Assembly (NCBI GenBank): GCA_019744975.1
Contig: JAIETP010000018.1
Span: 1,371 to 65,370 of the forward strand
Length of the DNA: 64,000 bases
Reading direction: 5' to 3'
Source: Burkholderiales bacterium
Lineage (GTDB): Bacteria > Pseudomonadota > Gammaproteobacteria > Burkholderiales > SG8-41
Shown: positions 3,247 to 43,053 of the stretch, piece after piece
Layout: every line of letters starts with the position of its first letter
Position numbering within the stretch: the first letter of the stretch is position 1
The notes under the pieces: model-generated
The model's database searches: none
The model's input: only the letters and a program-made list of their open reading frames with translations
Told to the model about the DNA's origin: nothing
Translations under genes and position numbers: made by a program

Positions 3247-4902
3247 GTGTCTGAACGCGAAGCCATGGAGTACGACGTCGTCATCGTCGGCGCAGGTCCC
3301 GCCGGTCTCGGCGCAGCGATCCGCATGAAGCAACTGGCGGCGGCCTTCGGCAAAAACCGTGAAGTCAGCGTCTGCGTACTGGAAAAAGGCTCCGAGGTCG
3401 GTGCGCACATTCTCTCCGGCGCGGTGATGGACCCGCGCGCACTGAATGAACTGATCCCGGACTGGAAGCAAAAAGACGCGCCGCTGAATGTCCCGGTCAG
3501 CGAAGACCGTTTCATGTTCCTCACCGAAACCGGCGCACTCAAGGTGCCCGGCGCGCTGCTGCCCGCCTGTTTCCAGAACCACGGCAACTATGTCGTCAGC
3601 CTCGCCAATGTCACGCGTTGGCTGGGCCAGCAGGCTGAAGGCCTGGGCGTGGAAATTTTCCCCGGCTTTGCCGCCGCGGAAGTGCTGTTCGATGAGAACG
3701 GTGCCGTCCGCGGTGTCGCCACCGGCGATATGGGTGTCGGGAAGGATGGGCAACCGACGGATGCGCACCAGCCGGGCATGGAGTTACACGCCAAATACAC
3801 CTTTTTCGCTGAAGGCTGCCGCGGCCACCTCGGCAAACAGCTGCAGGAAAAATTCAAGCTGCGTGAAGGCGCCGATCCGCAGGTCTATGGCATCGGTCTG
3901 AAGGAACTCTGGGAAATCAAGCCGGAGAAACACCAGCCCGGCCTGGTGATCCACACCGCCGGCTGGCCTCTGCAAAGCGACACCTACGGCGGCTCGTTTT
4001 TTTACCACCTTGAAGACAATATGGTCGCCATCGGGTTTGTCGTCGGCCTCGGTTACAGCAATCCTTATTTGAGTCCATACGAGGAATTCCAGCGTTACAA
4101 AACGCATCCGGCCATCAAGTCATTCCTCGAAGGCGGGAAACGCATCGCCTACGGTGCGCGGGCGATTTCCGCCGGCGGCCTGCAGTCACTGCCGAAACTC
4201 ATCTTCCCCGGCGGCTGCCTGATCGGCGACGATGCCGGTTTTCTCAATGCCTCGCGCATCAAGGGCAGCCATGCCGCGATCAAGTCGGGCATGCTGGCGG
4301 CGGAAGCGGCCTTCGATGCGCTGGCCGTTGAAACACCGGCGGCGGAACTGACCGCCTATCCAGAATCCTTCAAGTCGAGCTGGCTGCACGAGGAACTTTA
4401 CCGCGCGCGCAACTTCAAACCGTGGATGAGCAAAGGCCTCTACACCGGCACGCTGATGGTGGGCATCGACCAGGTGCTGTTCCGCGGCAAGGCGCCATGG
4501 ACGCTGCACCACGACCATTCGGACCACGAAACGCTGCAGCGCAAGACTGAATGTACGCCGATCGATTATCCGAAACCCGATGGCGTGATCACCTTCGACC
4601 GCATGTCTTCGGTATTCATTTCCAATACCAACCACAACGAAGACCAGCCGGTGCACCTGACGCTGAAGGACGCGTCGGTACCGGTCAATGTCAACCTCGA
4701 ACTCTATGACGCGCCGGAGCAGCGTTACTGCCCGGCCGGCGTCTACGAGATCGTGCGTGATGACAACGGGGCCAATCCACGGCTGCAGATCAACGCGCAG
4801 AACTGCGTACACTGCAAGACCTGTGACATCAAGGACCCGACGCAGAACATCGTCTGGGTCACACCTGAGGGTGGCGGCGGCCCGAATTACCCGAACATGT
4901 AA
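3247..4902 (+). CDS. Electron-transfer flavoprotein-ubiquinone oxidoreductase (ETF-QO)
   Basis: GTG start with 'aggag' RBS. '[18 protein letters not shown]' FAD fold. C-terminal 4Fe-4S region '[12 protein letters not shown]' and '[12 protein letters not shown]' tail typical of ETF-QO. Confidence 0.95.
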
Positions 4903-4961
4903 CATCTCCAAGGTAAAAATGGCGACCCGCCCTTTATAATCGGCGGGCAGACAATCCATCC

Positions 4962-5801
4962 ATGATCAAACCCCCGCCTCCAGGCACACGCAAGGACGTC
5001 ACCAACGGTGATGCGGTTTACCTGCGCGCGATCACCGAAAACATCCTCGGCTGGTCGGAACCCAAGGCACGCCTGATCAAGGCACTGGCCAACGACGATT
5101 TCCTGCTGTTTGCCCAGCGCATCATGGCGCTCAAGCCAGGACTGCAGGGTCAGCCTTTCCTCGAAATCCTGCTGCGTCTGCGCGAAGAAGAAGACAACAT
5201 GCTGCCGCCCGGCGGATTTTTCCCGGTGGCGGAAGCGCTGAACATGCTGGAAGACATCGACCGCTGGGTCATGCGGCACACCATCGCCTGGTGCGCCCTG
5301 TCGGCGGAGGACGCAGATGCGCCAATGTGCTGCGTCAACCTGTCGAGCGATGCACTGCTCAATCCGGGTTTTTCCGTTTACGTACGCTCACAGCTCAAAC
5401 ACCAGCGCGTGGCCGGCAGCAGGCTGTGTTTTGAAATCACCGAACCCGACGCCATCGCCCACCCAGAGGCCGCGCTGCAGTTCATCCGTGCGCTGAAGCC
5501 GCAGGGCTGCCGCTTCACGCTGGACAATTTCGGCAGTGTGAAAGTATCCTTCGCGCACATCAAGGACCTGCCCATCGATTACCTGAAAATCGACGGCAGC
5601 ATCATCCAGAACATCATCACCAGCCCCAGCGACCTCGCGCGTGCGCGCGCGATCAGCCTGACCTGTCAGCGCCTGGGCATCCGCGCCATTGCGCAAAGCG
5701 TCGAAGGCAAGGCCGTGCTGGCCAAGCTGACTGAAATCGGTTTTGACTATGCGCAGGGCTTCGGCATCGCGCATCCCGGTCCGCTGACCAAGGCGCGCTG
5801 A
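4962..5801 (+). CDS. Stand-alone EAL-domain protein (c-di-GMP phosphodiesterase family)
   Basis: Motifs 'FLEILLRL', 'CCVNLS', 'CFEITE', 'LDNFGSV', 'YLKIDGS', 'QSVEG', 'AQGFG'. The DDFG motif reads DNFG. Confidence 0.85.
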   Translation: MIKPPPPGTRKDVTNGDAVYLRAITENILGWSEPKARLIKALANDDFLLFAQRIMALKPGLQGQPFLEILLRLREEEDNMLPPGGFFPVAEALNMLEDIDRWVMRHTIAWCALSAEDADAPMCCVNLSSDALLNPGFSVYVRSQLKHQRVAGSRLCFEITEPDAIAHPEAALQFIRALKPQGCRFTLDNFGSVKVSFAHIKDLPIDYLKIDGSIIQNIITSPSDLARARAISLTCQRLGIRAIAQSVEGKAVLAKLTEIGFDYAQGFGIAHPGPLTKAR

Positions 5802-6596: not shown

Positions 6597-7796
6597 TTAC
6601 ATCGCTTCAAATACGCCGGCAGCGCCCATACCAGTGCCGATGCACATGGTGACCATGCCGTATTTCTTTTTTGTGCGGCGAAGCCCGTGCAACAACGTCG
6701 CGACACGGATCGCACCGGTGGCCCCCAGCGGATGGCCCAGCGCAATCGCACCACCCAGCGGATTGACCTTCGCCGGATCCAGTCCGAGTTCGCGGATCAC
6801 CGCCAGCGACTGCGCGGCAAAGGCCTCGTTCAGTTCAATCCAGTCCAGCGCGTCCTGCGTCAGCCCCGTCTGCTGCAGCACTTTGGGAATCGCCTTCACC
6901 GGGCCGATGCCCATCACATCCGGCGGCACCCCCGCCACGGCATAACCGAGGAAACGGCCCAACGGTTGAAGGTTATAACGTTTCAGTGCGGCTTCACTCA
7001 TCAACACCACGGCACCGGCGCCGTCCGACATTTGCGAGCTGTTGCCCGCGGTGACGCTGCCCTTTGCAGCGAAGGCCGGTTTCAGTTTGGCCAGGCCTTC
7101 AGGAGAGGTCTCGCGGCGCGGGCCTTCATCCTCGGTAGCCTGCCGGGTTTTGACCCTGATTTCGCGCGCGGCAAGGTCGGGCAGGTGTTCATTGATGGTG
7201 TACGGACTCATTTCCGCCTTGAATTCGCCGCTGTCGATGGCACGCAATGCACGGCGATGGCTTTCCGCGGCGAACAGGTCCTGATCCTCGCGGCTGACTT
7301 TCCAGCGCTCGGCGACGCGTTCTGCGGTGATGCCCATGCCATAAGCAATCGCAAAATTTGCGTCTTTCTCGAATATCGCCGGACTGAAGGTCGGCTTGTT
7401 GCCGCCCATCGGCACCATGCTCATGCTTTCGGTGCCGGCGGCGATCATCACGTCGGCTTCGCCCAGGCGGATCCGCGCCGCGGCATCAGCCACGGCCTGT
7501 ACGCCGGAGGAACAGAAACGGTTGATGGTCAGGCCCGGCACGGTATCGGGGAATCCGGCGAGCAACAGGCTGATGCGCGCCACATTCATGCCCTGCTCGC
7601 CCTCGGGCATCGCGCAACCGGTGATCACATCGCCGATTTCGTTGAGGTCCAGCCCCGGACATTGCGCCACCGCGCTTTTCAGCACATGCGCCAGCAGGTC
7701 ATCGGGCCGCGTGTTTTTGTACATGCCGCGCGGCGCCTTGCCCACCGCGGAACGGGTGGCGGCGACGATGTAGGCGTCTTGTACTTGCTTTGCCAT
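6597..7796 (-). CDS. fadA: Acetyl-CoA C-acyltransferase (3-ketoacyl-CoA thiolase)
   Basis: '[12 protein letters not shown]' active-site Cys region. 'NEAFAAQ' and '[14 protein letters not shown]', 'CIGTGMG' C-terminal thiolase signatures. Start MAKQVQDAY with RBS. Confidence 0.95.
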
Positions 7797-7808: not shown

Positions 7809-7964
7809 TTTACAATCGGTGAAAAGTGAACGGGTGAACGAGTGAGCCCCCTCTCCCCAACCCTCTCCCCCGGTGACGGGGGAGAGGGAGAATTTCGGGG
7901 TTACCCGTTCACCCGTTCACTTTTCACCCGTTCACGCCTCATACCAGATTCACCCGTTCACTAG
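7809..7964. repeat. Composite nested inverted-repeat element (octamer arms plus GC hairpin), copy 1, filling the gap between the fadB-like gene and fadA
   Basis: Left arm 'gtgaaaagtgaacgggtgaacgagtga' (7819-7845) is the reverse complement of 7903-7929 with 1 mismatch. Inner hairpin ccctctccccc (7861-7871) pairs with gggggagaggg (7878-7888). An extra 'cacccgttcac' lies at 7951-7961. Confidence 0.9.
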
Positions 7965-10451
7965 TTAGTTCCTAAGCGGCTTACCCGTCTTCAGCATCTG
8001 CTCAATCCGGGCCTGCGTCTTCTCCGTCGCAATCAATTCCATGAAATGCCGGCGCTCGAGGTCGAGAAACCACTGTTCGTCGACCAGGCTGCCGCCTTCG
8101 ATGTCGCCGCCGCACATGACCGTCGCGACCTTGGTACCGATCAGATAATCGTGCTCCGAGATATGGCCGCCGGCGCGCATGTTTTCCATGAAGGCGCGAA
8201 TCGTTGAGATGCCGCTGCGCCCCAGCGCCGGGATCGCCCTGGCGCGCAGCGGCGGCCGGTATCCGGCTGCCGCCATCGCGCGGACTTCAGCCTTGGCGAT
8301 TTCGAGCAGTTCAAAACGGTTCATGATGACGCGATCCGTCGCGCGCAGGAAACCGAGTTCGCGCGCATGTTCCGCGCTGCGCGCGACTTCGGCCATCGCC
8401 ACTGCCTTGAAATACTTTTGCAGGAAGGGTGAACTGTCGCCACCCTTGGCATCGGCCGCGGCACGCATCGCAAATTCCTTGCAGCCGCCCCCCGCCGGCA
8501 GCAGGCCGACGCCGGCCTCGACCAGACCCATGTAACTTTCCAGTGTCGCCACCGCGCGGTCGCAATGCATCACGAACTCGCAGCCTCCCCCCAGCGCCAG
8601 GCCGTCGACCGCGGCCACGGTCGGTACCATCGAATACTTGAGCATTTGCGTGGTGATCTGAAACTGCTCGACCAGGTGTTCGACTTCGGCGAGTTTGCCG
8701 GCCATCAATTGATCGGCGACACCCATTTGCCGCGCCGCTTTCAGCGCCAGCGATTCGGCTTCGCGCTTCATGCTTTTGAACAGTTTGCCCAGGGCCGACG
8801 GCGGCGCAGGCGGCGCCTTGCTGCCGCTGGATTTTTTCAGATTGGCGCCGACCGAAAACGGCGGCTCGGTCTGCCATACCACGAGGCCGATGTAATTGTG
8901 TTCGGCTTCGGCGATGGCCTGTTGTACCCCCTGCAGTACATCGTCGCCGATGGCATGCATGCGACTCTTGAAACTGACAATCGCGATGTCATCCCCGGTG
9001 TGCCAGCAACGCACGCCGTCGGTTTCGAAAATGGTGGTGCCGTATTTGCGTTCCTCTCCGAGCAGTTTGTCCGGGAAAGGCTGACGTTTATAGACAGCCA
9101 GGGCTGAACGCGGTTGATAGCGGTTGCTCTCCGGCGCATAGGAGCCGTCGGGGCGGTGCACACCCGTGCGCGCCGGATCCATCACCCAGGCCGGCAGCGG
9201 CGTGTTGACCATGGCCTTGCCCGCAGCGATGTCCGCGGCGATCCAGCTCGCCACCTGCTGCCAGCCGGCGGATTGCCAGATTTCAAACGGCCCGGTATCC
9301 CAGCCGAAACCCCAGCGGATCGCGAAGTCGAGATCGCGGGCGTTGTGTGCAATCGACGCGAGGTGCAGTGCGCAGTAATGGAAGGAGTCGCGGAAAATGG
9401 ACCAGATGAACTGCGCCTGCGGGTGATCCGAGGCATGCAATTGCGCAAAACGTTCCGCGGGATTCTTGTTTTTGAGGATTTCGACGACGGCCTCGTCGGC
9501 TTTGCCGTCGGATACGCGATAAGCACCGGTTTTGAGGTCGATGACCTGAATGTCCTTGCCGACTTTCTGGTACACGCCCTTGCGCGTTTTTTGTCCCAGC
9601 GCGCCCTGATCAATCAACTTCTGCAACCACGCCGGCACGCCGTAATATTTGTGCCAGGGGTCCTCGGGCAGCGTGTCGCGCATGGTGTGCACGACATGGG
9701 CAAAAGTGTCGAGACCGACCACGTCAGCGGTGCGGAAAGTCGCGCTGCGCGGCCGCCCGATCAGCGATCCGGTCAGCGCATCGACGGTATCAAAGCCGAT
9801 GCCGAGGCGTTCGGCATGATGAATGGTCGCCAGCATCGAAAAAACGCCGACGCGGTTGGCGATGAAGTTCGGCGTGTCCTTGGCGCGGATCACACCCTTG
9901 CCCAGCGTGGTGACGAGAAAACGTTCGAGGTCGTCGAGAATGCCGGCGTCGGTACCGGTGCAGGCGATCAGTTCGACGAGGTGCATGTAACGCGGCGGAT
10001 TGAAAAAATGCACGCCGCAGAAACGGTGGCGCTGTTTCTCGGGAAAAGCGCCCGCCAGTTTGTTGATCGACAGGCCCGAGGTGTTGCTGGCGAAAATGGT
10101 GTGTTCGCCGAGGTACGGCGCGACCTTGTGGTAGAGGTCCTCCTTCCAGTCCATGCGTTCGGAGATCGCCTCGATGACGATGTCGCAATCGCGCAGCAGA
10201 TCGAGGTGCTGGCCGTAATTCGCGGGTTCGATCAGGTCGGCGCGGTCCCGGGTGGCCAGCGGACTCGGTTCGAGTTTTTTCAGGTTGGCGACGGCCTTCA
10301 GCACATTGCCGTTGGGGTCACCCTCCTTCGCCGGCAGTTCGAACAGGATGACCGGGACATTGGCGTTGACGAGATGCGCGGCAATCTGGGCGCCCATGAC
10401 ACCGGCACCCAGCACGGCCACCTTGCGCACCATCAGGGGATGAGCGGGCAT
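7965..10451 (-). CDS. Bifunctional 3-hydroxyacyl-CoA dehydrogenase / enoyl-CoA hydratase (dehydrogenase N-terminal, crotonase C-terminal; FadN-type order)
   Basis: Start moved to 'MPAHPLMVRKVAVLGAGVMGAQIAAH' (RBS 'aggag'). Rossmann fold at the N-terminus. 'GLALGGGCEFVMHCD' crotonase motif in the C-terminal third. Confidence 0.9.
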   Translation of the reverse strand: MPAHPLMVRKVAVLGAGVMGAQIAAHLVNANVPVILFELPAKEGDPNGNVLKAVANLKKLEPSPLATRDRADLIEPANYGQHLDLLRDCDIVIEAISERMDWKEDLYHKVAPYLGEHTIFASNTSGLSINKLAGAFPEKQRHRFCGVHFFNPPRYMHLVELIACTGTDAGILDDLERFLVTTLGKGVIRAKDTPNFIANRVGVFSMLATIHHAERLGIGFDTVDALTGSLIGRPRSATFRTADVVGLDTFAHVVHTMRDTLPEDPWHKYYGVPAWLQKLIDQGALGQKTRKGVYQKVGKDIQVIDLKTGAYRVSDGKADEAVVEILKNKNPAERFAQLHASDHPQAQFIWSIFRDSFHYCALHLASIAHNARDLDFAIRWGFGWDTGPFEIWQSAGWQQVASWIAADIAAGKAMVNTPLPAWVMDPARTGVHRPDGSYAPESNRYQPRSALAVYKRQPFPDKLLGEERKYGTTIFETDGVRCWHTGDDIAIVSFKSRMHAIGDDVLQGVQQAIAEAEHNYIGLVVWQTEPPFSVGANLKKSSGSKAPPAPPSALGKLFKSMKREAESLALKAARQMGVADQLMAGKLAEVEHLVEQFQITTQMLKYSMVPTVAAVDGLALGGGCEFVMHCDRAVATLESYMGLVEAGVGLLPAGGGCKEFAMRAAADAKGGDSSPFLQKYFKAVAMAEVARSAEHARELGFLRATDRVIMNRFELLEIAKAEVRAMAAAGYRPPLRARAIPALGRSGISTIRAFMENMRAGGHISEHDYLIGTKVATVMCGGDIEGGSLVDEQWFLDLERRHFMELIATEKTQARIEQMLKTGKPLRN

Positions 10452-10611
10452 GGGGATGACACTCCTGAAAGACGCTTGCTGAAAAGCGTGCTGAAAACGT
10501 GAAATGATTCTAGCACCAGTTTGCAGCAGGCCTGTGCAGAAAGCAGGCAAAAAGCGGCGGACAAAAAAACGGGCGGCCCGCAGGCCGCCCGCTGTCGGTT
10601 GCTGCCGGTGG

Positions 10612-12440: not shown

Positions 12441-12468
12441 CACCTAATCACCTAATCACCTAATCACC
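12441..12468. repeat. 8-bp tandem repeat 'cacctaat' x3.5 (minus strand 'taggtgat', SD-like)
   Basis: Read directly at 12441-12468. Lies in the 43-bp gap between the acyl-CoA ligase stop and the thioesterase start. Confidence 0.95.
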
Positions 12469-42828: not shown

Positions 42829-42834
42829 GATTCA

Positions 42835-42993
42835 GTGAACAGTGAACGGGTGAACGAGTGAATACCCCTCTCCCCAGCCCTCTCCCCGTGCAACGGGGAG
42901 AGGGAGCACACCACGGGATTTCCCGTTCACCCGTTCACCCGTTCACCCGTTCACCCGTTCACCCGTTCACCCGTTCACCCGTTCACCCGTTCA
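42835..42993. repeat. Composite element copy 2: degenerate 'gtgaacNg' octamers, GC hairpin, then 9 perfect tandem 'cccgttca' octamers
   Basis: Left arm 42835-42862. Hairpin ccctctccccg (42878-42888) pairs with cggggagaggg (42894-42904). Octamer array 42922-42993 (72 bp). Confidence 0.95.
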
Positions 42994-43053
42994 CCAAATT
43001 TGATGAGTGTGCGATAGTCGCGGTTCTTTTCAAACACCGCACATTGCAAAGCC

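What the first reader, a model, noticed from the sequence alone, without database searches (positions are those of the whole stretch)
7809..7964. Nested inverted-repeat element occupying the whole intercistronic gap between the fadB-like gene and fadA
The 156-bp gap inside the beta-oxidation operon is made entirely of one structured element. A 27-bp outer inverted repeat built from GTGAAC-type octamers (7819-7845 against 7903-7929, 1 mismatch) encloses an 11-bp GC stem (ccctctccccc / gggggagaggg). A further 'cacccgttcac' lies at 7951-7961.

Transcribed in the operon mRNA, this would form a very stable multi-level stem-loop. It could act as an mRNA processing or stability determinant, or as an attenuator setting the fadB-like:fadA ratio. 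A related copy at 42835-42993 shows that it belongs to a mobile or dispersed family.
Basis: partly seen in the sequence, partly recalled or inferred. Interest (0 to 1): 0.6.

Follow-up and report, generated by a model that had tools for sequence, protein, structure and literature searches.

The report
Dispersed tandem-octamer hairpin repeat element
The structured sequence between the two fatty-acid-oxidation genes is real, but it is one gene-less copy of a hairpin repeat built from 8-base units that sits between many unrelated genes, so it is not a control device specific to this operon.

Summary
Window 7818-7928 is a 32-nt inverted repeat of GTGAACGR octamers around a perfect 12-bp CCCTCTCCCCCG hairpin. 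The predicted RNA fold is -92 kcal/mol (z = -7).

It is not specific to the fad operon. The genome (3.7 Mb, uncultured betaproteobacterium) holds about 27 GTGAACGR loci. It also holds at least eight other families with the same design, giving 86 hairpins in all. Of these, 86% lie between co-directional genes.

In 27 relatives, the same fadB-like/thiolase junction is either empty (2-23 nt, 13 genomes) or holds a hairpin from one of five different unit families.

All six hairpins with a large loop enclose a small gene:
- four enclose a 23S-rRNA-IVS-type four-helix-bundle protein (PF05635);
- two enclose a GxxExxY PD-(D/E)XK protein;
- each belongs to a different unit family.

The GTGAACGR gene-bearing copy lies between nadK and recN. 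It keeps these arms in relatives whose protein is only 68-83% identical.

Best reading: a gene-less, IVS-like dispersed repeat. It probably forms an RNase III-type hairpin in the operon mRNA and is dispensable for the operon. It is a new member of a known but unexplained repeat class (Xanthomonas, Nostoc and Geobacter heptamer/octamer arrays).

The parts
7965..10550 (-). Upstream gene of the operon: fadB-like 3-hydroxyacyl-CoA dehydrogenase / enoyl-CoA hydratase. The open frame is 861 aa; the true start is probably the internal Met.
   Evidence: PF02737, PF00725, PF00378.
6597..7796 (-). Downstream gene: acetyl-CoA acyltransferase (thiolase, fadA-like), 399 aa. ATG at 7796-7794, GAGG Shine-Dalgarno at 7806-7803.
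   Evidence: Thiolase_N and Thiolase_C. Orthologues in 27 genomes start at the equivalent ATG.
7818..7849 (.). Left arm: GTGAAAAG-GTGAACGG-GTGAACGA-GTGA plus GCCC. These are degenerate to perfect GTGAACGR octamers.
   Evidence: I1, 32 nt, 91% complementary to 7897-7928. Paired with P>0.9 in the mRNA ensemble.
7897..7928 (.). Right arm: GGGGTTA-CCCGTTCA-CCCGTTCA-CTTTTCACC, the inverted octamers.
7849..7888 (.). Centre 'module A': two direct CCCTCTCCCC boxes (7849-7858, 7861-7870) and one inverted GGGGAGAGGG (7879-7888). Perfect 12-bp stem 7861-7872 / 7877-7888 with a 4-nt loop.
   Evidence: The same module sits in about 12 GTGAACGR loci, in either orientation.
7923..7962 (.). Two further unpaired right-arm units (TTCACCCGTTCACG at 7923-7936 and TTCACCCGTTCACT at 7949-7962), separated by a 12-nt spacer. 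They end 2 nt from the fadB-like stop codon.
   Evidence: D1. The spacer and the outer unit are absent from the orthologous element of G009.
42833..42995 (.). Second copy of the same family and sub-type: about 3 left units, module A at 42866-42904, and 9 right units. It lies between two co-directional + strand genes.

Best explanation
The element is one gene-less copy of family 'F1'. This is a dispersed repeat about 110 nt long. Its arms are inverted arrays of the octamer GTGAACGR, and its centre is a CCCTCTCCCC hairpin module.

F1 is one of at least nine such 'tandem-unit hairpin' families in this genome. They occupy intercistronic gaps of co-directional genes.

Each of six families has exactly one copy whose loop holds a small gene: a PF05635 four-helix-bundle '23S rRNA IVS protein' or a GxxExxY PD-(D/E)XK protein. 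The F1 gene-bearing copy lies between nadK and recN.

Shown:
- dispersal of the same composite sequence to many loci;
- inheritance of this copy since before the split from species G009;
- absence, or replacement by other unit families, at the same junction in relatives;
- changes in unit number and inversion of the centre.

Inferred:
- The copy arrived by copying from another F1 locus, not by local evolution.
- It is transcribed within the fad operon mRNA, where its roughly 30-bp near-perfect stem is a substrate for RNase III, as the stems of rRNA intervening sequences are. Cleavage would cut the message between the two cistrons.
- This is a tolerated side effect, not a selected regulator.
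For: Family:
- There are 27 clusters of GTGAACGR arrays, always in the order GTGAACGR...YCGTTCAC.
- Thirteen copies with module A or a variant of it align over about 110 nt.

Superfamily:
- Nine unit families give 86 hairpins in one arm order and none in the opposite order.
- 71 of 83 lie between co-directional genes, against 64% of gaps and 51% of intergenic bases (p = 1e-5 and 6e-11). The median distance after the stop codon is 13 nt.

This junction:
- 13 genomes are empty; 14 hold hairpins of five unit families.
- G009 has the orthologous F1 + module A copy.

Cargo:
- All 4 PF05635 genes of this genome, and all 22 in the genus, are bracketed by inverted unit arrays.
- Two GxxExxY genes are bracketed in the same way.
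- PF05635 homologues 68-83% identical to the nadK-recN one keep GTGAACGR arms. Homologues at 58-68% identity at other loci (dnaK-dnaJ, ECH) have GTGAAC/GTGAAK/GTGAAA units. The protein tree groups by unit type.

RNase III:
- An rnc homologue is present.
- The Coxiella IVS has a 28-bp stem around an S23p ORF and is cut by RNase III in vitro (PMC4990558).
Against: - No transcript data could be obtained, so transcription, cleavage and any effect on fadA are inferred.
- I found no clean recent insertion with conserved flanks and no target-site duplication. Most F1 loci are older than the split from G009, G012 and G001, so present-day mobility is not shown.
- Arms are homogenised separately. At C7:149800 the left arm is all GTGAACGA and the right arm all GTGAACGG. 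This points to slippage rather than templated copying.
- Genomes with no PF05635 gene still carry many arrays: G011 has 44 hits, and G002 and G020 have hairpins at this junction. A gene-bearing master is therefore not needed for persistence.
- The sense strand does not fold better than the antisense strand (24 versus 30, p = 0.56). This gives no positive sign of selection on the mRNA structure.
Confidence: 0.65

Rival explanations
1. A selected, operon-specific RNA device. The hairpin would be kept because it sets the fadB-like:fadA ratio, either as a processing or stability site or by weakening translational coupling.
For: - A hairpin of some family is present at this junction in 14 of 27 genomes and has been replaced rather than simply lost in several.
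- It sits exactly between the stop codon and the ribosome-binding site.
- The mRNA-sense fold is 9 kcal/mol better than the antisense fold for this copy.
Against: - 13 of 27 genomes have 2-23 nt here, including genomes nested among hairpin carriers.
- The same element lies next to unrelated genes at about 27 loci.
- There is no sense-strand bias over 55 hairpins.
- The SD is about 50% unpaired.
- There is no terminator.
Confidence: 0.1
2. A purely local simple-sequence product. Octamers would expand by replication slippage from a GTGA-containing seed at each gap, and inverted arms would arise by fold-back template switching. No movement between loci would be involved.
For: - Unit numbers vary from 1 to 10 per arm and between species.
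- Arms are homogenised separately.
- Arrays contain mosaics of related units with a 7/8-nt period shift.
- The same octamer arrays occur in unrelated phyla such as Longimicrobium, Bacteroidales and Verrucomicrobiota.
Against: - The same composite of arms plus a 40-nt centre module is found at about 12 loci. A second 24-nt module (caagggaacacttgargcgragca) recurs at 4 loci.
- All loci of a genome share a few unit types.
- G022 has GGTRAYT hairpins at at least 5 junctions where G000, G009, G012 and G001 have GTGAACGR.
Confidence: 0.1
3. DNA-level binding-site arrays. The paired octamer arrays would be sites for a sequence-specific protein, either a global regulator as proposed for Geobacter or the PF05635 protein itself. 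The hairpin potential would be incidental.
For: - Aklujkar et al. interpreted paired tandem octa/heptanucleotide sites in G. metallireducens this way (PMC2700814).
- Unit type tracks the PF05635 clade.
- Arm complementarity shows no RNA-strand bias.
Against: - An 8-nt period does not keep sites on one face of the helix.
- Many families coexist, and six of them have different 'cognate' genes of two unrelated folds.
- Arrays persist in genomes without these genes.
- There is a strong bias to transcribed intercistronic gaps and away from divergent promoter regions.
Confidence: 0.1
4. A REP/REPIN element mobilised by a RAYT (IS200-like Y1 transposase).
For: It is extragenic, palindromic and multi-copy. 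The genome has three Y1_Tnp genes.
Against: - None of the three Y1_Tnp genes is flanked by unit arrays. The one at C30:16137 is flanked by its own classic GTAG-headed REPs.
- F1 has no GTAG head, and its arms are tandem octamers.
Confidence: 0.02

Closest known systems
Inverted heptamer/octamer tandem-repeat arrays: Xanthomonas GGGAATC, Nostoc GGGGAYT/STRR (Rehm et al. 2015, PMC4692102), and G. metallireducens paired tandem octa/heptanucleotide sites (Aklujkar et al. 2009, PMC2700814)
   Same: - Tandem 7-9-nt units, often as two arrays on opposite strands with a variable spacer.
- Many copies.
- Preference for gaps between aligned ORFs, close to stop and start codons, and under-representation between divergent genes.
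- Unit number and sequence vary between close species while the locus is kept.
- Function unknown.
   Different: - The unit sequence differs (GTGAACGR; not G4-forming).
- A defined centre module is present.
- Here I could also show family replacement at orthologous junctions and a one-gene-per-family cargo pattern, which those papers do not describe.
23S rRNA intervening sequences carrying an S23p/PF05635 ORF (Coxiella burnetii, Leptospira; PMC4990558)
   Same: - A long, nearly perfect terminal stem (28 bp in Coxiella, about 30 bp here).
- The family's gene-bearing copy encloses a PF05635 gene in the loop.
- Sporadic distribution among relatives.
- The RNA can be cut without harm because no ligation is needed.
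   Different: - This copy has no ORF and lies between two protein genes, not in helix 25 or 45 of 23S rRNA.
- The arms are tandem octamers.
- RNase III cleavage is not shown here.
- This assembly has no rRNA genes for comparison.
REP/BIME and REPIN-RAYT systems; Correia/NEMIS and ERIC MITEs
   Same: - Short, protein-less, palindromic intergenic repeats that are co-transcribed with flanking genes.
- From my own knowledge: Correia hairpins are RNase III targets, and REPs stabilise upstream mRNA, as at malE-malF.
- The mosaic make-up resembles BIMEs.
   Different: - No RAYT association.
- No GTAG head.
- No target-site duplication seen.
- No DDE transposase relative.
- Arms are variable-number tandem units.
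- Strongly biased to co-directional intercistronic gaps rather than operon ends.

Membership tests
Inverted tandem heptamer/octamer arrays (STRR / Xanthomonas / Geobacter type) | Arms made of at least 2 tandem units of 7-9 nt, with the second array inverted. | tested here: met
Inverted tandem heptamer/octamer arrays (STRR / Xanthomonas / Geobacter type) | Many copies; enriched between aligned ORFs near stop and start codons; rare between divergent ORFs. | tested here: met
   71 co-directional, 7 convergent, 5 divergent. One search gives the binomial tests.
Inverted tandem heptamer/octamer arrays (STRR / Xanthomonas / Geobacter type) | Unit number and sequence vary between close relatives at conserved loci. 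| tested here: met
rRNA-type intervening sequence (IVS) | Terminal inverted repeats forming a stem of about 20-30 bp. | tested here: met
rRNA-type intervening sequence (IVS) | PF05635 ORF in the loop. | tested here: not met
   This copy has no ORF. Only the family's copy at C24:5262-5703 (nadK-recN) has one.
rRNA-type intervening sequence (IVS) | Inserted in 23S rRNA helix 25 or 45. | tested here: not met
   It lies between two protein-coding genes.
rRNA-type intervening sequence (IVS) | Excised from the transcript by RNase III. | not testable with these tools
Only an rnc homologue could be shown.
REP/REPIN-RAYT | A cognate RAYT gene flanked by the same repeats. | tested here: not met
REP/REPIN-RAYT | A conserved GTAG-type head followed by a GC-rich imperfect palindrome of 20-40 nt. 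| tested here: not met
   Sequence.
MITE | Terminal inverted repeats. | tested here: met
MITE | Target-site duplication and clean filled/empty sites. | tested here: inconclusive
   Flanks of filled and empty sites do not align, and ends decay into degenerate units.
MITE | A related autonomous element with a transposase. | tested here: not met
   The gene-bearing copies encode PF05635 or GxxExxY, not a known transposase.
Intrinsic terminator / Rfam cis-regulatory RNA | A GC stem followed by a U-run, or a match to a curated RNA family. | tested here: not met
   One search finds no site in the element. In one search the best hit is 31 bits against a gathering score of 61.7.

The most novel reading that the evidence does not exclude
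PF05635 (IVS-type four-helix-bundle) and GxxExxY nuclease-fold genes, each with arms of a cognate 7-9-nt tandem unit, may form one class of intercistronic, IVS-like cassettes.

In this reading:
- There is one gene-bearing 'master' per unit family.
- The many gene-less hairpins, including this one, are its non-autonomous derivatives.
- They occupy fixed intercistronic 'slots' that are overwritten family by family as lineages diverge. One junction holds four different families in four species at about 90% identity.
- The stems serve to cut the insert out of host transcripts by RNase III.
Probability: 0.3. Interest if true: 0.8.

Novelty: new member of a known kind. Interest (0 to 1): 0.45.

Why it matters
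For the fad operon it matters little. The element is dispensable and should not be annotated as a regulator.

The wider pattern is more useful. Paired arrays of tandem heptamers and octamers have been noted since 1990 in cyanobacteria, Xanthomonas and Geobacter without explanation. This genus offers a compact comparative system of about 30 species:
- The same intercistronic slots are empty, filled, or filled by different unit families.
- Every PF05635 or GxxExxY gene sits inside such a hairpin.

That makes three questions directly testable:
- Are these repeats selfish cassettes related to rRNA intervening sequences?
- What do the two very common 'hypothetical' protein families do?
- How do operons tolerate long hairpins between cistrons?

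The arrays also break MAG assemblies, since contigs of G009 end in them, and they create spurious ORFs.

Tried and rejected
- **Rfam:** only sub-threshold chance hits.
- **Promoter/terminator scan:** nothing in the element.
- **REP/RAYT link:** three Y1_Tnp genes, none flanked by unit arrays.
- **Strand test for RNA-level selection:** G.U pairs would favour the sense strand, but there is no bias (24 versus 30, p = 0.56).
- **SD sequestration:** only about half paired.
- **23S rRNA IVS comparison:** the assembly has no rRNA genes.
- **Clean empty site or target duplication:**
  - The G001-filled/G000-empty site at C2:81750 does not align across the junction.
  - The G000-filled site at C24:2995 does not align either. 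That locus also shows allele sharing between G000 and G001.
- **Strict dependence of arrays on a PF05635 gene:** rejected. G011 has 44 array hits and no such gene.
- **Loci in Longimicrobium with GTGAACGG arms about 400 nt apart:** these turned out to be nested repeats, not gene cargo.

Full report
**1. The observation**

The genes lie on the minus strand.

- The upstream gene is a fadB-like 3-hydroxyacyl-CoA dehydrogenase/enoyl-CoA hydratase at 10550..7965.
- The downstream gene is a thiolase. Its likely start is ATG 7796-7794, behind a GAGG at 7806-7803.
- The gap is therefore 168 nt rather than 156.

The repeat finder gives these features:

- outer arms 7818-7849 and 7897-7928, 32 nt and 91% complementary;
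- a perfect 12-nt inner stem 7861-7872 / 7877-7888;
- a second CCCTCTCCCC box at 7849-7858;
- two further right-arm units at 7923-7936 and 7949-7962.

Both motifs are far above chance: 13 matches against 0.05 expected, and 6 against 0.09. The mRNA-sense strand folds at -92.4 kcal/mol (z = -7.2) and the other strand at -83.2. The copy at 42833-42995 is real.

**2. It is a dispersed family**

The assembly is 3.69 Mb in 44 contigs, 60.5% G+C, and an uncultured betaproteobacterium. It has 27 clusters of GTGAACGR arrays.

- Every cluster with both arms has the order [GTGAACGR]n ... [YCGTTCAC]n, with 1 to 10 units per arm.
- About 12 loci share the CCCTCTCCCC centre ('module A'), in either orientation.
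- Thirteen copies, including one variant, align as a consensus of about 110 nt.
- A second 24-nt module recurs inside the arms or centres of four loci.
- Other centres are short and unrelated to each other.

**3. It is one of many families of the same design**

A de novo scan for period 7-9 arrays and a family census found nine unit families:

- GTGAACGR
- GTRATTAR
- GGATTGA/GGAGTGA
- GGTRAYT
- GAGTGAT
- CACAGAGNN
- ACAGGATNN
- CGCCAAGA
- GTGAAKNN

Together they give 86 hairpins, all with the purine-richer arm first and none in the opposite order, plus 88 single arms.

- 71 of 83 classifiable hairpins lie between co-directional genes. The background is 64% of gaps and 51% of intergenic bases (p = 1e-5 and 6e-11).
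- Only 5 lie between divergent genes (p = 0.001).
- The median distance from the upstream stop codon is 13 nt.

This matches what Rehm et al. reported for Xanthomonas and Nostoc heptamer arrays (PMC4692102). It also matches the 'paired sites' of tandem octa/heptanucleotides in G. metallireducens (PMC2700814).

**4. The same junction in relatives**

I fetched the thiolase locus from 28 genomes of the genus; 27 could be read across the junction.

- Thirteen have 2-23 nt between the two genes.
- Fourteen have a tandem-unit hairpin, of five unit types:
  - GTGAACGR with module A (this genome and G009);
  - GGTRAYTG (G022, G002, G042);
  - GATTGAGG (G012, G020);
  - GTAAGCRG (G021, G007, G024, G003);
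  - GGAGTSAG (G018, G019, G023).
- On a thiolase tree, G042 sits among 'empty' genomes, and three unit types occur within the small clade around this genome.

The hairpin is therefore dispensable for the operon. This junction is a recurrently occupied slot.

**5. Turnover at other junctions**

I searched flanks of 24 GTGAACGR loci in four relatives. Flank identity to this genome is 89.7% for G009, 89.4% for G022, 87.7% for G012 and 85.3% for G001.

- G009, G012 and G001 share GTGAACGR elements with this genome at orthologous loci. One example is C4:58217, which carries both modules in G001. The family is therefore older than these splits.
- G022 has no GTGAACGR array at all. At 12 orthologous junctions it has:
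  - a GGTRAYT hairpin at five;
  - a GGATTGA hairpin at one;
  - nothing at four;
  - the same degenerate family at one;
  - a single arm at one.
- At C1:25153 the four species carry four different families.
- Centres can be inverted between species, for example C24:14835 against G009.
- Occupancy of a junction is conserved far above the base rate of about 6%, while the family is not. This needs exchange between loci, by re-insertion or by gene conversion.
- I found no clean recent insertion and no target duplication.

**6. Cargo genes**

One GTGAACGR hairpin (C24:5262-5703, between nadK and recN) encloses a PF05635/TIGR02436 four-helix-bundle protein. Its closest solved structure is XCC0516, PDB 2GSC.

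- All four PF05635 genes of this genome lie in hairpin loops, each of a different unit family.
- All 22 PF05635 genes in 11 of 31 genus genomes are bracketed in the same way. They sit at about six syntenic intercistronic loci.
- Two more hairpins carry GxxExxY PD-(D/E)XK genes, one intact and one frameshifted. The families are CGCCAAGA and ACAGGATNN.
- Homologues of the nadK-recN protein at 68-83% identity, from other lineages, still have GTGAACGR arms at nadK-recN.
- Homologues at 58-68% identity at dnaK-dnaJ or next to an ECH gene have GTGAACNR, GTGAAKNN or GTGAAAMG units.
- The protein tree groups by unit type.

So gene and arms travel and diverge together.

The gene is not needed for arrays to persist. 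G011 has 44 octamer-array hits and no PF05635 gene. G002 and G020 have none either but carry hairpins at the fad junction.

**7. What it is not**

- No Rfam family reaches threshold.
- There is no promoter-like or terminator-like site.
- The three Y1 transposase (RAYT-like) genes are not flanked by unit arrays, and one has its own classic REPs.
- The thiolase SD is about half unpaired in the ensemble.
- Across 55 intercistronic hairpins the sense strand is not more stable than the antisense strand (24 versus 30, p = 0.56).
- Some arms carry different unit variants on the two sides. Complementarity is therefore not visibly tuned for the mRNA.

**8. Mechanism**

*Shown:*

- It is a copy of a dispersed composite repeat.
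- This copy has been inherited since before the split from G009.
- It sits in a transcribed-looking intercistronic position.
- It has a roughly 30-bp stem with pairing probability above 0.9.

*Inferred from established knowledge:*

- Stems of this length are RNase III substrates.
- The Coxiella IVS, a 28-bp stem around an S23p ORF, is cut in mid-stem by RNase III (PMC4990558).

I therefore expect the fad mRNA to be cut between the cistrons, with loss of the tight coupling that the 'empty' relatives have.

**9. Distribution and novelty**

- Exact GTGAACGR arrays also occur in other betaproteobacterial MAGs, some with the CCCTCTCCCC centre.
- As plain arrays they occur in Longimicrobium, Bacteroidales, Verrucomicrobiota and others.
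- Earlier notes of this scan had reported the same octamer hairpins and the PF05635 link in other genomes. I treated these as leads and re-tested them here.
- The element is a new member of a known but unexplained repeat class.
- The cargo-per-family pattern and the slot turnover are the parts that may be new.

Noticed in passing
G000 contigs C24:5262-5703, C7:129594-130060, C9:55290-55760, C20:31540-31942 (outside the window): All four PF05635 (23S rRNA IVS-type four-helix-bundle) genes of the genome sit inside tandem-unit hairpins. Each is in a different unit family, and each is co-oriented with the housekeeping genes around it (nadK-recN, thyA-folA, upstream of rfbA, purA-tRNA).
   Followed up: yes
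G000 C22:2753-3226 and C13:94832-95273 (outside the window): Two hairpins, with CGCCAAGA and ACAGGATNN arms, enclose GxxExxY PD-(D/E)XK (PF13366/TIGR04256) genes. The second is frameshifted. A nuclease-fold cargo might bear on how these elements spread.
   Followed up: partly
window 12445-12468: A lone array CCTAATCA x3 (the inverted GTRATTAR family) lies just before a gene end, with no obvious partner arm within 100 nt.
   Followed up: partly
G000 C7:82660-82773 and other ACAGGATNN loci: The unit UACAGGAUG resembles, from memory, the CsrA/RsmA SELEX consensus (RUACARGGAUGU). Five tandem copies face their complement. This may be coincidence.
   Followed up: no
G000 C30:16137-16472: A RAYT-like Y1 transposase is flanked on both sides by classic GTAG-headed REP sequences (gtagcccgtaaggagcg...). 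This is a separate, conventional REP system in the same genome.
   Followed up: partly
G009 contigs C13, C14, C29, C18/C8, C22/C14 ends: Several contigs of the relative G009 begin or end inside tandem-unit arrays. Two orthologous hairpin loci are split across contigs. The arrays break MAG assemblies, so counts are underestimates.
   Followed up: partly
G000 C24:2995-3091 versus G009, G012, G022 and G001: At this locus the coding flanks of G000 group with the more distant G001, against G009, G012 and G022. This suggests allele exchange between species by recombination.
   Followed up: no
L098, L123, L129, L144 and others (genome-contig scan): MAGs labelled 'Bordetella parapertussis' carry GTGAACGR hairpins like those of this uncultured lineage. 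The species label of those records looks wrong.
   Followed up: no
L130 (Longimicrobium NZ_DASWNM010000016: 4651-5099): A Gemmatimonadota locus has GTGAACGG arms enclosing CCCTCTCCCC/GGGGAGAGGG boxes and nested CAGAG-type 9-mer hairpins. This is the same combination of motifs as here, in a distant phylum.
   Followed up: partly
G000, whole assembly: No 16S or 23S rRNA signature sequences were found. It therefore cannot be asked whether the same hairpins interrupt the rRNA.
   Followed up: yes
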